From a virus: a stretch of 64,000 nt of DNA. The translations under genes were made by a program, and so were the position numbers. The first letter of the stretch is position 1; each line of letters opens with the position of its first letter. The notes beneath the pieces were generated by a model that was not told the DNA's origin, ran no database searches, and was given only the letters and a program-made list of their open reading frames with translations. Of this stretch, positions 2,020-5,943 are shown piece after piece. Location: IMG/VR virus record IMGVR_UViG_3300009085_000002, positions 1 to 64,000 of that record; one strand, written 5' to 3'.

Positions 2020-2808
2020 TTAGTTCATTTTTTCATTAGTTATTAATTCATCACTAGCTTCTTTACCCCATGCAGTTATTATTAAATAGTGCTTTATATA
2101 TTTGAATATAACTGGTTGCAAAACAATTGGATCTGGAATGGGTTTTTTAATTAATTGATAGCTTTTTATTTCTGTATTCTTTAAATTAAAATATGATGGT
2201 GGTGCAACAATTTCTAATGAGCATTTTAAAAACTTATAATCAGAACTTGAATGATTGTTTTCCTTTTCTTTTAAATATTTTTTATACTCTTGTTTAGATA
2301 TGTATGCAGAATAAGGATCTCTATCATAATTTGCTGATAAGGTACTAATAATTATAAAACATTTATCATTTTCATCAATTTTAAATTCTTCAATTCTTTG
2401 TAAATTTTCATCAGGTACTGTATCAATATAATTATTGATTGAACTATAAATTAATTTATATTTATTACATATTTTCTTAACCGAGTCCTCAGTAATAAAT
2501 TTATATATAGGGTATTTAATAGAGAAATAATTAATTGACTCTATTAAATCTTGTTTTAATTCATTTTCTTTTTTTAGCTCATCTAACCTACTAATTTCTA
2601 CTTTTGCTTCCTGAACTTCTTTTGTATTAATAAATCCTAATTTTTCTAAACGCTCAGATTTATTAATTAATAATTGTTTATCTGTATCTAAACTATTATA
2701 TATTTTTGCTTCTTGTAATAGTTTATCTACTTCAGTATAAAATGTTTCATGAATTTCTTCAATGATTTTATTTGTGTCTTTATTAATAACTTTTTTAAAT
2801 AAATTCAT
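2020..2808 (-). CDS. hypothetical phage protein
   Basis: Long ORF, probable start MNLFKKV; C-terminal PDPIVLQPV...YLIITAWG motif. Confidence 0.75.
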   Translation of the reverse strand: MNLFKKVINKDTNKIIEEIHETFYTEVDKLLQEAKIYNSLDTDKQLLINKSERLEKLGFINTKEVQEAKVEISRLDELKKENELKQDLIESINYFSIKYPIYKFITEDSVKKICNKYKLIYSSINNYIDTVPDENLQRIEEFKIDENDKCFIIISTLSANYDRDPYSAYISKQEYKKYLKEKENNHSSSDYKFLKCSLEIVAPPSYFNLKNTEIKSYQLIKKPIPDPIVLQPVIFKYIKHYLIITAWGKEASDELITNEKMN

Positions 2809-2954
2809 ATTATTATGTTTAATTATAGTTTTAATTTCCACCACTCAATTCTTATATGAATAGCAAAATACTTACACTGTATAAAGATAAAATATTCACT
2901 AAATGGATTTGGAATCTAAATAATTTATTTATAAAATTTTTCATAAGCCTAACA

Positions 2955-3134
2955 TTATTGTTTTATTAAATTTATTTCTGGTCTTAATGTTGATTCTTTA
3001 TATACACATTTATTAGTTTGATAAGGATATTCTATACAACCTCTACCACCCATTTCATACCATTTTCTTTTAACTTGTTTGCATTTGCACCATGCACCCA
3101 GATTATTAAATTTACAATCAATTTTTATTGTCAT
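2955..3134 (-). CDS. small Cys-rich protein (59 aa, not in ORF track)
   Basis: Hand translation MTIKIDCKFNNLGAWCKCKQVKRKWYEMGGRGCIEYPYQTNKCVYKESTLRPEINLIKQ*. Confidence 0.55.
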   Translation of the reverse strand: MTIKIDCKFNNLGAWCKCKQVKRKWYEMGGRGCIEYPYQTNKCVYKESTLRPEINLIKQ

Positions 3135-3232
3135 GATTAATTATATTAAAATAAGATTAAATTCATTTGTATTTAAACAAAATTTCTATTTTAGTTTTTT
3201 ATTGGGTAAAATGATGGTGTGTAGATGAGAGG

Positions 3233-3272
3233 TGAAAAGGGATGTAGGGGTTTATAGCACTCTACACCCTTA
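3233..3272 (-). terminator. hairpin/terminator after the 3280-3513 gene
   Basis: Minus strand AAGGGTGTAG ... CTACATCCCTT followed by TTT. Confidence 0.55.
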
Positions 3273-3279
3273 TGAATCC

Positions 3280-3513
3280 TCATTTACAGTAATTACCATT
3301 AAACTTATGACCTCTTATTACTAATGGTACATTAAGACTACATTTAACCAATTTAGTGCTGTTAGGTATTCTAATTTCCTTAACAACACCATTAATTAGT
3401 CTAAGAATAGTTCTCTTAGATAGTCTTCTTTGTTGTCTATTAATACCATCACTTGTAGGATTGAATCCTTTAGGTAATGCTTTAATTTGCTCATGATTTA
3501 GTGGTGTGTTCAT
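3280..3513 (-). CDS. hypothetical basic protein
   Basis: 77-aa ORF containing NRQQRR. Confidence 0.65.
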   Translation of the reverse strand: MNTPLNHEQIKALPKGFNPTSDGINRQQRRLSKRTILRLINGVVKEIRIPNSTKLVKCSLNVPLVIRGHKFNGNYCK

Positions 3514-3550
3514 AATATAATTATTTTAAAGTTAATAGTCAATTAAAAAT

Positions 3551-3712
3551 GTCTAGGTTACTAACCTTTGACCAGGTTACTGTGAGTAGAAGCTTTTTAC
3601 TACAAGTTTAACACCATGTAGGTTTAACACCAAGGGTTTAAGACTTATAATCCTTCTACATTCCTAGACTATTTACTGAGACTTCCTTTACTCAGTAAAC
3701 CACAGTGGAAGT
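3551..3712 (-). ncRNA. putative structured RNA element with pseudoknots (strand inferred from flanking genes)
   Basis: Six complementary segment pairs and an 11-nt direct repeat within a 210-nt intergenic gap. Confidence 0.5.
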
Positions 3713-3724
3713 ATTTTAGAATAG

Positions 3725-3958
3725 TTAATTTTTATAGTCATATAATTCTTCATATAGCTCTTTAGCCAACTTCTCAAGAACTATTCTTTTATTTTCTCCT
3801 TGTAATCCTGTTTTTTCATAGTATAAATTACTAGGTAATCTATAAAAAACAGTAATAATTGGATTATGATCTGGTCCAGTTTTACTAACTACACCATTTT
3901 CTAATGCAGCTCCAAATTCTTTTTGAACTGTTTCTGCTAATTTAACTCTATAGTCCAT
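3725..3958 (-). CDS. stand-alone double-stranded RNA-binding domain (DSRM)-like protein
   Basis: MDYRVKLAETVQKEFG...KTGPDHNPIITVFY...GENKRIVLEKLAKELYEEL follows the RNase III dsRBD pattern (DYKtxLqE, GPdH, KKxAEqxAAk). Confidence 0.6.
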   Translation of the reverse strand: MDYRVKLAETVQKEFGAALENGVVSKTGPDHNPIITVFYRLPSNLYYEKTGLQGENKRIVLEKLAKELYEELYDYKN

Positions 3959-4016
3959 AATATAATTATTTAAGTGAATAATCAAAAAGCAATTCTACCA
4001 ACAATTACTATAGGTA

Positions 4017-4253
4017 TTAGTATAACTCATTATACCATTCTATAGCTTCTGTTAGTGAATCTGTAAACTTATTAAATAGTAATTTATGTTCTTTAGCATT
4101 ATTACTTTGAGTTACACAAAATTTAGAACATATTTTATCATTCTCTATTGTAAAATGAATGAATAGTCTTTTTAATTCTTTAACAGAACTTGCTAATATA
4201 TAAGTATGTTCTATTATATTATTAAGATCTATTACATTTATTGTGTGTTTCAT
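4017..4253 (-). CDS. hypothetical protein
   Basis: 78-aa ORF. Confidence 0.65.
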   Translation of the reverse strand: MKHTINVIDLNNIIEHTYILASSVKELKRLFIHFTIENDKICSKFCVTQSNNAKEHKLLFNKFTDSLTEAIEWYNELY

Positions 4254-4387
4254 ATAGATAAAATTAAGAAAAACTGGAGGATATAAAACAAAACCTAAAA
4301 CATTATTTAATACTAAAACAGATATATGAAAAAAAAATCTAGTAAATGAGTCACAATTAAAAGAACGAAATATCCTCCAGTATATTT

Positions 4388-4561
4388 TTAGTTAGATAAA
4401 TATAAGAATAATGTCCAGCTTATTATTACTAATACAAGATGTATCATGTTGTAAGTTGTATACTTATTACTATAGTATCTATTTATCACATAATTTATAC
4501 CACTGATTATATAAGTTATTGATAAAGATAAACTAATTGCAAATACAATATAATACCACAT
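4388..4561 (-). CDS. small 2-TM membrane protein (57 aa, not in ORF track)
   Basis: Hand translation MWYYIVFAISLSLSITYIISGINYVINRYYSNKYTTYNMIHLVLVIISWTLFLYLSN*. Confidence 0.55.
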   Translation of the reverse strand: MWYYIVFAISLSLSITYIISGINYVINRYYSNKYTTYNMIHLVLVIISWTLFLYLSN

Positions 4562-4592
4562 ATTATTTAGTTTTAAGTTAAATTCAAAGTAA

Positions 4593-4618
4593 CTACAGAG
4601 TATTATTAACTCTGTAGT
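4593..4618 (-). terminator. hairpin after the 4620-4868 gene
   Basis: ACTACAGAG...CTCTGTAGT inverted repeat. Confidence 0.5.
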
Positions 4619-4619
4619 A

Positions 4620-4868
4620 TTAGTTCATTGACTCTAAACTCTCTAAGTTTATAAATAAATCTTCTTTTGACAATGTGTCATTATAGAAGTATATATTTAG
4701 AGAGTCAGATCTTTTATTATTAGAGTTAGTTGGCATATTTTCCAACACTCTAATCATTTCTTTTTCAATCTTAATTGTTTGATATTTGTAATATAAATAA
4801 GTTACAAATATACCTAATGCAAATGCACCAGAAAAAACAAAGAAGATTATTAATGATAGTTTAAGCAT
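4620..4868 (-). CDS. hypothetical membrane-anchored protein
   Basis: N-terminal hydrophobic helix. Confidence 0.65.
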   Translation of the reverse strand: MLKLSLIIFFVFSGAFALGIFVTYLYYKYQTIKIEKEMIRVLENMPTNSNNKRSDSLNIYFYNDTLSKEDLFINLESLESMN

Positions 4869-4891
4869 AGTGGTAGATTTAATTAATTAAT

Positions 4892-4924
4892 AAAAACCTA
4901 AGAGGACTATTATATCCTCTTAGG
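4892..4924 (-). terminator. intrinsic terminator
   Basis: CCTAAGAGGA...TCCTCTTAGG stem with T-run on the minus strand. Confidence 0.65.
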
Positions 4925-4973
4925 AAATGTCTAAATTAATTTTATGTAATACAAAAGTTGAATAGAACTAAAT

Positions 4974-5063
4974 CTATCCAATAAGATTAATAGCTATTAC
5001 AGCTAAGCTAGCTACAAAAACTATACTATAGAATATTGTAGCAGAAATTTCTAAAGTTTTCAT
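4974..5063 (-). CDS. 29-aa single-TM peptide (not in ORF track)
   Basis: MKTLEISATIFYSIVFVASLAVIAINLIG*, lying between two hairpins. Confidence 0.45.
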   Translation of the reverse strand: MKTLEISATIFYSIVFVASLAVIAINLIG

Positions 5064-5106
5064 ACTAATAAGTTTAAGATTAAATATATAAGATTAAAGA
5101 AAATAC

Positions 5107-5137
5107 AAAAGAGAAAGCAGGAAATTAATCCTGCTTA
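5107..5137 (-). terminator. intrinsic terminator
   Basis: AAGCAGGA-AATTAA-TCCTGCTT followed by a T-rich tract on the minus strand, right after the 5147 stop. Confidence 0.65.
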
Positions 5138-5146
5138 ATTAGCTTA

Positions 5147-5518
5147 CTAAGCTTCTGAACCTTCTTTAATAGAAGCTCTAGTTGTACTGGCAACTTCTAT
5201 TGGTTCAATTTCAAACATATCTGCTGGGCCATATTTATGGCAATACTCTGCAATTTCCAGAGCAGATACTTCAGCAACTTTAGTATAAGTAAACCTTCTT
5301 CCATAAGTAGGATCAGCCTCAACTTCTCTTACTTGAAATAAGTAGGACTTACCTACCTGTAGTTGCATATTTTCTGCTATTGTACCAGAAAGTACATTCC
5401 TGTTAGGAAATATTCCTGACAATACATTAAGAATTACAGGTTCCTTACCATTTTTGTCTAATGATGCATTAGGACCATTAAACTTACTAGCTACTGCTAA
5501 AATTAGTGCGTTAAACAT
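5147..5518 (-). CDS. first gene of the early cluster; hypothetical beta-rich (possibly OB-fold) protein
   Basis: 123-aa ORF, DKNGKEPVIL...PNRNVLSGTIAE...GKSYLFQVRE...YGRRF; has its own terminator. Confidence 0.7.
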   Translation of the reverse strand: MFNALILAVASKFNGPNASLDKNGKEPVILNVLSGIFPNRNVLSGTIAENMQLQVGKSYLFQVREVEADPTYGRRFTYTKVAEVSALEIAEYCHKYGPADMFEIEPIEVASTTRASIKEGSEA

Positions 5519-5911: not shown

Positions 5912-5943
5912 TTTGCATAATATATTAATTTTTATTATATTTG
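5912..5943 (+). promoter_or_regulatory. Bacteroidota primary-sigma promoter (rightward, start of late block)
   Basis: TTTG-N20-TATATTTG. Confidence 0.8.

What the first reader, a model, noticed from the sequence alone, without database searches (positions are those of the whole stretch)
3551..3958. Stand-alone dsRNA-binding-domain gene directly followed by a pseudoknotted RNA element: possible phage ribonucleoprotein module
Seen: the 77-aa ORF 3725-3958 has the hallmarks of an RNase III-type dsRBD (DYRVKLAE, GPDH, NKRIVLEKLAK) but no nuclease domain, and the densest non-coding structure in the early region starts ~12 nt after its stop codon. Established: dsRBDs bind A-form RNA, and eukaryotic viruses use them (e.g. 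vaccinia E3L) to hide dsRNA. Inference: protein and RNA may act together (autoregulation, RNA decoy, RNase III antagonism, or masking phage RNA from RNA-sensing defences).
Basis: partly seen in the sequence, partly recalled or inferred. Interest (0 to 1): 0.75.

Follow-up and report, generated by a model that had tools for sequence, protein, structure and literature searches.

The report
Lone divergent dsRBD gene in crAss-like phage
A freshwater crAss-like phage carries a small optional early gene for a protein that is only a diverged double-stranded-RNA-binding domain, but the folded RNA said to follow it is ordinary for this gene cluster and nothing links the two.

Summary
The 77-aa ORF (3725-3958, minus strand) is real and is a divergent stand-alone dsRBD. 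Pfam's dsrm model misses it. However, 7 of 10 of its relatives that I scanned pass that model, and its subfamily aligns to them at 98.9% hhalign probability. The alpha1 Glu and GPDH are kept. The KKxAK motif is degenerate: the third Lys is absent in 20 of 20 subfamily members.

The gene is accessory. It lies in a leftward cluster of ORFan genes of an orphan 89-kb crAss-like phage, and the nearest phages lack it.

It is not the densest structure. Four of 8 other spacers tested and two other stretches fold more strongly. The 'pseudoknot' pairing arises in 5.8% of shuffles and looks sterically strained. There is no Rfam match, no paralogue and no covariation data. The one subfamily homologue with visible context is followed by a plain terminator.

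This scan had already noted a similar lone dsRBD in another freshwater crAss-like phage (e1-6062588). The RNP-module idea remains untested and unsupported.

The parts
3725..3958 (-). 77-aa stand-alone divergent dsRBD gene (P0001); the TAA stop is at 3725-3727
   Evidence: Translation. 11 relatives at E 3.6e-10 to 7.8e-4. 7 of 10 of those scanned pass PF00035. hhalign 98.9%.
3671..3700 (-). Hairpin with a 10-bp stem and a 10-nt loop, 24 nt after the stop. Likely a 3'-end, stability or pause hairpin of the dsRBD mRNA. It has no U-run.
   Evidence: Folds. Inverted repeat I19. Not called as a terminator.
3707..3712 (-). ACUUCC, complementary to GGAAGU (3681-3686) in the hairpin loop. This is the proposed crossing pairing.
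   Evidence: Read from the sequence. Chance rate 5.8% of 20,000 shuffles.
3551..3670 (-). Imperfect branched hairpin. It is built largely from three near-palindromic GTTTAAC-type direct repeats (3605-3644) and two AGGTTACT repeats (3550-3581).
   Evidence: Fold. Repeat families D2, D5, D6. The motifs are not repeated elsewhere in the genome in this arrangement.
3508..3526 (-). 19-nt start region of the next gene, 95% identical to the start region of the dsRBD gene (3953-3971)
   Evidence: Repeat D3. The exact 15-mer occurs only at these two places in the window.
3280..3513 (-). Next gene downstream: a 77-aa ORFan that looks Lys/Arg-rich by eye
   Evidence: ORF list. No Pfam, PHROG or PADLOC match passing threshold.

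Best explanation
P0001 is a stand-alone, diverged member of the dsRBD superfamily. It is encoded as an optional gene in the leftward cluster of small ORFan genes of an orphan freshwater-sediment crAss-like phage.

Inferred setting: by analogy with phi14:2, this cluster is the early region transcribed by the virion RNA polymerase. It lacks host-type promoters, and its spacers are punctuated by hairpins.

Inferred mechanism: the protein binds A-form RNA duplexes without sequence specificity, through the alpha1 Glu9/Gln12 face and the GPDH loop. Contact from the altered KKxAK region is probably weakened. Its targets would be the many hairpins of the early transcripts, or sense/antisense duplexes. 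By binding them it would shield them from, or compete with, host RNase III or RNA-sensing immunity.

The 211-nt spacer after the gene is best read as ordinary punctuation of this cluster. It holds a 3' hairpin for the dsRBD message and a repeat-built imperfect hairpin in the leader of the next gene. It is not a dedicated partner RNA.

Shown: the gene, its homology, its accessory status and the unexceptional fold statistics. Inferred: RNA binding, the target and the early timing.
For: Homology:
- 11 relatives at E 3.6e-10 to 7.8e-4 among 1.84 billion representatives.
- 7 of 10 of them that I scanned exceed the PF00035 cut-off.
- Subfamily against those relatives: hhalign 98.9%, E 1.2e-17 over 66 columns.
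- A mixed profile hits 26 PDB sequences, all from dsRBD proteins by their names.
- Language-model neighbours are dsrm clusters at 0.88. This is a lead only.

Motifs:
- Glu9 is kept in 20 of 20 subfamily members, and G..H in 20 of 20.
- The defining regions are taken from the Introduction passages of PMC11309768.

Stands alone:
- The protein is 77 aa and the genome has no RNase III domain.
- 21 subfamily members are all 72-82 aa.
- No longer forms were found, which is weak evidence.

Accessory:
- The nearest phages share 42% major capsid identity.
- Neither has a match, including the one complete genome.

Setting:
- crAss-like by its head and portal PHROGs and 31% capsid identity to Crassvirales records.
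- TTTG-N-TAnnTTTG sites lie in the + strand operon region at 5912, 9965, 17476, 24741 and 36390. None lies in the spacers of the leftward cluster.
- phi14:2 early genes are made by the virion RNAP without a common promoter motif, and two early intergenic regions there are abundant non-coding RNAs (passages of 10.1101/2020.03.07.982082).

Hairpin punctuation: 4 of 8 other spacers have z <= -2.96.
Against: - Pfam dsrm does not match P0001 directly.
- Subfamily-only profiles give nothing significant against PDB. In one search, 7 of 13 sub-threshold hits at E 0.46-1.8 are dsRBD proteins.
- The fold itself could not be predicted.
- The KKxAK region is degenerate. The third Lys is absent in 20 of 20, and the first Lys is present only in P0001 (1 of 20). 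Acidic residues follow it (E62 in 20 of 20, E63 in 17 of 20). P0001 has net charge -1. Canonical dsRNA affinity may therefore be low or lost.
- No expression data exist.
- Early timing is inferred from position and from the absence of promoter motifs only. The count of promoter-pattern matches is itself not above chance: 7 against 4.05 expected, with 13 of 100 shuffles reaching 7.
Confidence: 0.5

Rival explanations
1. First reader's module. The dsRBD protein specifically recognises the structured RNA encoded just downstream (3551-3712). The pair would act as a ribonucleoprotein for autoregulation, as a decoy, or as an RNase III antagonist.
For: - The two are adjacent.
- The spacer has 37% GC against 26% for the genome, at the 97.9th percentile of 120-nt windows.
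- The sense strand folds better than the antisense: z -2.53 against -1.28.
- By eye from the fold, the central helix is an interrupted duplex of about 22 bp, long enough for one dsRBD.
- Another note of this scan describes a lone dsRBD 'between structured RNAs' in another freshwater crAss-like phage (e1-6062588). It is unchecked here.
Against: - The spacer is not exceptional within its cluster.
- There is no Rfam family and no paralogue.
- The crossing pairing is at chance level.
- P0011's flank is a plain terminator with a 75-nt spacer.
- Downstream folds of the 5 homologue loci share no visible architecture, and their z values of -2.0 to -3.8 are what gene ends with hairpins give.
- From established knowledge, dsRBDs read shape rather than sequence.
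Confidence: 0.1
2. The dsRBD fold has been re-used for something other than dsRNA. It could be a type-B-like protein-protein module, for example docking on host RNase III or another dsRBD protein. Or it could be an oligomeric small-molecule sponge, as proposed for the evolution of Acb4.
For: - The third Lys of KKxAK is lost in 20 of 20 subfamily members, and helix alpha2 is acidic.
- The subfamily is tightly conserved, with 70% mean column identity, including an extra W43-G44 segment in at least 90% of members.
- The Acb4 sponges (PF13876) have a dsRBD-like fold (PMC11722364, section 8 read).
- A Porphyromonas phage relative lies beside a gene annotated as an Apyc1-like anti-Pycsar nuclease.
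Against: - Neither P0001 nor any of the 10 relatives scanned hits PF13876 or HicA.
- The alpha1 Glu and the GPxH His, which contact RNA, are invariant, and would not need to be kept in a sponge.
- P0001 itself keeps K57 and R58.
Confidence: 0.2
3. The spacer acts as DNA rather than RNA. The three GTTTAAC-type repeats (spacing 16 and 14) and the two AGGTTACT repeats (spacing 19) would be binding sites for a regulator controlling the next gene or an antisense promoter.
For: - Direct repeat families D2, D5 and D6.
- The predicted helices are largely made by these near-palindromic repeats pairing with each other.
- The best sigma70-like site of the 3.2-kb region scanned, TTAACA-16-TATAAT with 11 of 12 matches, lies inside the repeats on the + strand.
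- The next gene encodes a small protein that looks basic by eye.
Against: - The repeats are short and occur only here.
- No DNA-binding domain was found in neighbouring genes.
- Promoter-like sites are not enriched: 32 against 25.1 +/- 3.9 expected.
- A sigma70 consensus may not apply in a Bacteroidota host.
Confidence: 0.15

Closest known systems
Canonical dsRBD (Pfam PF00035 dsrm), e.g. the C-terminal domain of bacterial RNase III and the dsRBDs of ILF3, ADAR2, TARBP2 and Staufen
   Same: About 70 aa. Homologous by profile-profile comparison. The alpha1 Glu and the GPxH loop are kept. A mixed profile hits these PDB chains.
   Different: The Pfam model does not match it. KKxAK reads KRIVL here and NQ[KR]xVA in the rest of the subfamily. 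There is a 3-residue longer beta3-alpha2 link and an acidic alpha2. It is not joined to any catalytic domain.
Uncharacterised phage dsRBD proteins: about 75 aa stand-alone, or 146-199 aa with an N-terminal extension. Examples are P0003-P0009, loci L002, L046 and L047, and Porphyromonas phage phage005b XAW31776.1.
   Same: Phage-encoded and without a nuclease. 41-48% identical to P0001 over the domain. Annotated only as a hypothetical protein.
   Different: These pass PF00035 and keep [KQ][KR]xAK. By eye they lie in other phage types with about 41% GC.
Vaccinia E3 and other eukaryotic-virus dsRBD proteins that mask dsRNA (recalled knowledge; only the abstract of PMC9319463 was seen in a listing)
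   Same: A virus-encoded dsRBD without a nuclease. A masking role is the natural analogy.
   Different: Different host domain, and no homology beyond the domain was shown here. The sensors being evaded would be bacterial, for example RNase III or RNA-sensing CBASS (abstract of PMC10686824 seen in a listing). No function has been tested.
RNase III processing hairpins between early genes of phage T7 (recalled knowledge, no paper read)
   Same: Irregular hairpins in the spacers of an early gene cluster.
   Different: No cleavage data and no sequence similarity was sought. The transcription units are unknown here.

Membership tests
dsRBD / Pfam PF00035 (dsrm) | Match to the family model above its curated cut-off (23 bits) | tested here: not met
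   No hit at E<=10 for P0001. No hit on the genome at E<=1, while the same search rings in 10 control genomes.
dsRBD / Pfam PF00035 (dsrm) | Significant homology to proteins that do pass the model | tested here: met
   phmmer E 5e-6 to 3.1e-4 to P0003-P0009, which score 34.8-49 bits on PF00035. hhalign 98.9%.
dsRBD / Pfam PF00035 (dsrm) | alpha1-beta1-beta2-beta3-alpha2 fold | not testable with these tools
The Atlas has no model.
dsRBD / Pfam PF00035 (dsrm) | RNA-binding region 1: Glu in helix alpha1 (PMC11309768 Introduction) | tested here: met
   E9 is kept in 20 of 20 subfamily members, and Q12 in 20 of 20.
dsRBD / Pfam PF00035 (dsrm) | RNA-binding region 2: GPxH in the beta1-beta2 loop | tested here: met
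   GPDH at residues 28-31. G and H are kept in 20 of 20, P in 12 of 20.
dsRBD / Pfam PF00035 (dsrm) | RNA-binding region 3: KKxAK at the start of alpha2 | tested here: not met
   P0001 reads K57 R58 I V L61. The third Lys is kept in 0 of 20, the first Lys in 1 of 20, and the second basic residue in 20 of 20.
dsRBD / Pfam PF00035 (dsrm) | Binds dsRNA | not testable with these tools
   Needs biochemistry.
RNase III | Catalytic RNase III domain | tested here: not met
   The protein is 77 aa. PF14622 finds nothing in the genome at E<=0.1.
Acb4 anti-CBASS sponge (PF13876) | Match to PF13876 | tested here: not met
   No such hit for P0001 at E<=10, nor for the 10 relatives at E<=1. Tetramer formation was not testable.
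HicA toxin (dsRBD-like fold) | Match to the HicA model, and a HicB partner gene | tested here: not met
   No HicA hit. Neighbouring ORFs have no Pfam family. A HicB partner was not sought by fold.
Known RNA families (Rfam 15) | Covariance-model match to the spacer | tested here: not met
   Only two chance-level hits at E 2.7 and 4.7, far below gathering scores. No tRNA or tmRNA.
H-type pseudoknot | Two crossing stems with loops long enough to span them, supported beyond chance or by covariation | tested here: inconclusive
   A 6-bp crossing stem exists, but it arises in 5.8% of shuffles. By my own geometric reasoning, 0 nt between the two 3' arms would force a 6-nt loop to span 16 bp. No covariation data exist.
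Intrinsic terminator | GC-rich hairpin followed by a U-run | tested here: not met
   The scan lists no terminator at 3671-3700. The stem has 3 G-C pairs, counted by eye, and the tail reads AGUCUAGG.

The most novel reading that the evidence does not exclude
The 72-82 aa subfamily (21 members, all known only from metagenomes) is a phage counter-defence protein. It would be a bacterial-virus counterpart of vaccinia E3. Made early, it would coat the duplex regions of the phage's own highly structured early transcripts, including the element just after its gene. This would keep host RNase III or RNA-sensing immune cyclases from seeing or cutting them.
Probability: 0.12. Interest if true: 0.75.

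Novelty: new variant of a known kind. Interest (0 to 1): 0.4.

Why it matters
In bacteria, dsRBDs are known almost only as the tail of RNase III (established knowledge). Lone dsRBD proteins of phages have no study that I could find. Three searches listed no paper on them, by title and abstract, and a search for PF00035 with 'phage' found none.

A conserved phage subfamily keeps two of the three RNA-contact regions and has systematically lost the third. That makes it a cheap and clear target for biochemistry: does it still bind dsRNA, and does it blunt RNase III or RNA-triggered defence?

For this particular finding the value is moderate. The protein is real and unusual. The proposed RNA partner, which gave the finding its appeal, does not stand out.

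Tried and rejected
- Direct family scans of P0001 gave nothing usable: Pfam, PHROGs (best E 0.12), PADLOC and PDB phmmer (best E 0.92, Cmr2).
- Subfamily-only profiles against PDB gave nothing significant.
- Looking for subfamily loci:
  - IMG/VR scans with A2, P0002, P0011 and A4 returned only canonical-type relatives (L002/L045, L046-L048).
  - The metagenome scan gave 15 loci. By eye, 9 are full-length RNase III-like genes. One (L003) is the same contig as L002. Only L007 is a subfamily member.
  - The GTDB genome scan found nothing.
- Tandem-motif search in IMG/VR: 24 stretches. By inspection these are coding peptide repeats or unrelated palindromic sites, none like this spacer.
- BLAST of the spacer against the genome and all loci gave only chance-size matches.
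- Sequencing runs: no RNA holder is listed.
  - X1 is probably the source sample.
  - X2 holds an identical 372-nt contig.
  - X3 holds pieces about 5% diverged, none covering 3514-3958. No covariation could be read.
- Longer fused forms of the subfamily: none found, which is weak evidence.
- The nearest phages by capsid lack the gene.
- Supplementary files were not asked for. Supplementary Tables 2-4 of the phi14:2 preprint (non-coding RNA coordinates, primer extension) and Table S3 of the Acb4 paper (family list) might bear on the analogies drawn.

Full report
**What is there**

The window is the first 64 kb of an 88,965-bp IMG/VR virus record with direct terminal repeats. Its G+C is 26%. 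PHROG matches to a major head protein (phrog_11589, E 7e-79) and a portal (phrog_6547, E 9e-87) mark it as crAss-like. So do tblastn matches of its capsid protein to 120 phage records, mostly crAss-like Bacteroides, Flavobacterium and Cellulophaga phages. It is a distant member, with at best 31% capsid identity. The nearest IMG/VR relatives share only 42% capsid identity. Its DNA occurs in freshwater-sediment metagenomes.

**The gene**

The ORF is on the minus strand, 3958 down to 3725. It sits in a run of small minus-strand ORFs from about 5518 down to the left end. None of those I scanned has a Pfam, PHROG or PADLOC match passing threshold.

**Is it a dsRBD?**

Direct tests fail.
- Pfam gives no hit at E<=10, and PF00035 does not ring on the genome at E<=1.
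- PDB phmmer gives only chance hits.

An exhaustive phmmer over 1.84 billion representatives found 11 relatives at E 3.6e-10 to 7.8e-4.
- Of the 10 I scanned (P0012 was left out), 7 pass the PF00035 cut-off with 34.8-49 bits. P0010 scores 18.5 bits. The two closest, P0002 and P0011, have no dsrm hit.
- A profile of all 12 hits 26 PDB sequences at E<=0.01, all from dsRBD proteins by their names (ILF3, ADAR, TARBP2, Staufen, SPNR, RNase III, Xlrbpa). That profile contains the canonical members, so this alone says little about P0001.
- The decisive comparison is hhalign of the three closest sequences (A2) against the eight canonical-type relatives (A3): 98.9% probability, E 1.2e-17, 66 aligned columns.
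- BLASTP of P0001 against P0003, which scores 47 bits on dsrm, gives 48% identity over 71 residues.
- Language-model neighbours are dsrm clusters at 0.88, which the tool itself rates as a lead only.

**The subfamily and its altered RNA face**

A profile search found 21 proteins of 72-82 aa, all from metagenome sources (ENA, Logan, JGI). None has a precomputed Pfam domain, and one carries the JGI name 'dsRNA-specific ribonuclease'. I aligned 20 of them (P0016 left out); mean column identity is 70%.

The three RNA-contact regions of dsRBDs are the alpha1 Glu, GPxH and KKxAK (Introduction passages of PMC11309768). Measured against them:
- Glu9 is kept in 20 of 20.
- G28 and H31 are kept in 20 of 20, and Pro in 12 of 20.
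- In KKxAK the first Lys is kept only in P0001 (1 of 20; Gln in 19). The second basic residue is kept in 20 of 20. The third Lys is kept in 0 of 20 (Ala 18, Leu 1, Phe 1).
- Acidic residues follow (E62 in 20 of 20, E63 in 17 of 20). P0001 has net charge -1.

The canonical-type phage relatives keep a basic residue at the third position in 7 of 8 by a motif pattern. The subfamily is therefore a dsRBD with one contact region systematically changed. RNA binding is plausible but not assured.

**Stand-alone and accessory**

- No RNase III catalytic domain is found in the genome.
- No longer subfamily forms were found, which is weak evidence.
- Neither of the two nearest phages has a dsRBD match. One is a complete genome and the other is 66% complete.
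- Other phage loci carry canonical stand-alone forms (78 aa, L046) or N-terminally extended forms (146-150 aa; L002, L006, L008, L047, L048).
- In Porphyromonas phage phage005b the relative is a 155-aa 'hypothetical protein' next to a gene annotated as an Apyc1-like anti-Pycsar nuclease.

**The RNA**

The spacer 3514-3724 is 211 nt and non-coding.
- The stretch 3551-3712 has 37% G+C, against a mean of 26% (sd 4.8%) for 120-nt windows. Its best 120-nt window is at the 97.9th percentile.
- The antisense strand gives z -1.28. The whole spacer gives z -1.57, with 13 of 200 shuffles as good.
- In my scan of 4440 windows of 160 nt on both strands, 3551-3710(-) ranks 5th by raw energy and 56th after regression on composition.

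It is not the densest structure.
- 4561-4760(-) gives z -6.01, with 0 of 200 shuffles as good.
- 3135-3480(-) gives z -3.95, with 0 of 100 as good.
- The 8 other spacer stretches of the cluster give z +1.77, -1.11, -0.75, -2.96, -3.79, -4.22, -3.42 and -0.57. Four of 8 are therefore stronger than the candidate.

The structure has two parts.
- The first is a 10-bp hairpin with a 10-nt loop at 3671-3700, with no U-run. It is not called as a terminator.
- The second is a branched imperfect hairpin at 3551-3670. Its helices come largely from three near-palindromic GTTTAAC-type direct repeats and two AGGTTACT repeats.

The 'pseudoknot' is ACUUCC (3707-3712) pairing with GGAAGU in the hairpin loop.
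- An equal or longer Watson-Crick match arises in 5.8% of 20,000 shuffles of the 24-nt flank, and in 33% if G-U pairs are allowed.
- There are 0 nt between the two 3' arms. By my own geometric reasoning, a 6-nt loop would then have to span both stacked stems.

Other tests found nothing.
- Rfam gives only two chance-level matches, and there are no tRNAs.
- No paralogue exists in the genome or in any fetched locus.
- The tandem-motif search in IMG/VR found only unrelated repeats.

**Do homologues carry a partner RNA?**

Only one subfamily locus could be read: L007, encoding P0011. Its stop is followed by a GC-rich hairpin plus U-run, and the next ORF starts 75 nt after the stop. The 150 nt after five homologue genes fold with z -2.0 to -3.8. 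The window's own 150 nt gives z -2.29. The structures show no common plan by eye, and such values are what gene ends with hairpins give. I ran no control set of unrelated gene ends. Read-laying gave no diverged copy of the spacer, so covariation is untested.

**Setting and mechanism**

Sites fitting the Bacteroidota promoter pattern TTTG-N17-23-TAnnTTTG lie on the + strand at 5912, 9965, 17476, 24741 and 36390, in the operon region. The other two of the 7 matches are at 783(+) and 26300(-). The total count is not above chance: 7 against 4.05 expected, with 13 of 100 shuffles reaching 7. Within 2228-5458, the only minus-strand TAnnTTTG sites fall inside ORFs.

In the crAss-like phage phi14:2, early genes are transcribed by the virion RNA polymerase with no common promoter motif. 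Two early intergenic regions there are abundant non-coding RNAs of unknown function (passages of 10.1101/2020.03.07.982082).

I therefore infer three things:
- The leftward cluster is early and made by the virion RNAP.
- Its spacer hairpins are transcript punctuation (3' ends, pauses or processing sites). Phage T7's RNase III sites are a recalled analogy.
- P0001 is an early accessory protein acting on RNA duplexes in general.

Masking duplex RNA from RNase III or from RNA-sensing immunity is the most natural role. A structured phage RNA triggers a CBASS cyclase according to the abstract of PMC10686824, seen only in a listing. This role remains inference.

**Comparison and novelty**

The domain is known, and lone dsRBDs are known in eukaryotic viruses. 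Three searches listed no paper on lone phage dsRBD proteins, and a search for PF00035 with 'phage' found none.

Acb4 sponges have a dsRBD-like fold (PMC11722364, section 8 read), but PF13876 is not matched. HicA toxins also share the fold (passages of 10.1101/2023.12.08.570793) and are not matched either.

This scan had already reported a lone 76-aa dsRBD in another freshwater crAss-like phage (e1-6062588). I could not see that sequence.

**Verdict**

This is a real, unusual accessory protein: a new variant of a known domain. It is followed by an ordinary structured spacer. The ribonucleoprotein-module reading is unsupported, at about 10%.

Noticed in passing
window 59576-62651 (-): The family A DNA polymerase is split. 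61467-62651 carries the exonuclease and the first part of the polymerase domain. 59576-60406 carries PF00476 positions 127-380. Between them, ORF 60400-61221 has a LAGLIDADG_3 domain. Whether this is an intein, an intron-borne or a free-standing homing endonuclease was not resolved.
   Followed up: partly
window 4561-4760 (-): This is the strongest local fold I measured: z -6.0, with 0 of 200 shuffles as good. It overlaps the 3' half of ORF 4620-4868 and includes a 10-bp hairpin just after that ORF's stop.
   Followed up: partly
window 3508-3526 and 3953-3971: The two consecutive genes, both 77 aa, share a 19-nt stretch across their start codons. The exact 15-mer occurs only at these two places in the window. 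It may be a shared leader or initiation signal.
   Followed up: partly
window 3624-3651 (+): A sigma70-like site, TTAACA-16-TATAAT with 11 of 12 matches, lies on the strand opposite the genes and inside the repeats. If active, it would give a transcript antisense to the dsRBD gene. Such sites are not enriched in the region.
   Followed up: no
window 5912, 9965, 17476, 24741, 36390 (+): TTTG-N-TAnnTTTG (Bacteroidota-type) sites lie in the + strand operon region. No such full site lies in the spacers of the leftward cluster. This suggests a Bacteroidota host and a different polymerase for the left cluster.
   Followed up: partly
window 4254-4387 (-): A 12-bp perfect long-range pairing (CUGGAGGAUAUU with AAUAUCCUCCAG) closes almost the whole 134-nt spacer: z -2.96, with 0 of 200 shuffles as good.
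   Followed up: no
L049 (PP754928.1 7805-8272): In Porphyromonas phage phage005b, a 155-aa dsRBD-bearing 'hypothetical protein' follows a gene annotated as an Apyc1-like anti-Pycsar nuclease.
   Followed up: no
window 3271-3420 and 3990-4140: A 2025 freshwater metagenome (X3) holds short contigs about 3-5% diverged from this phage, so a close relative exists in another study.
   Followed up: no
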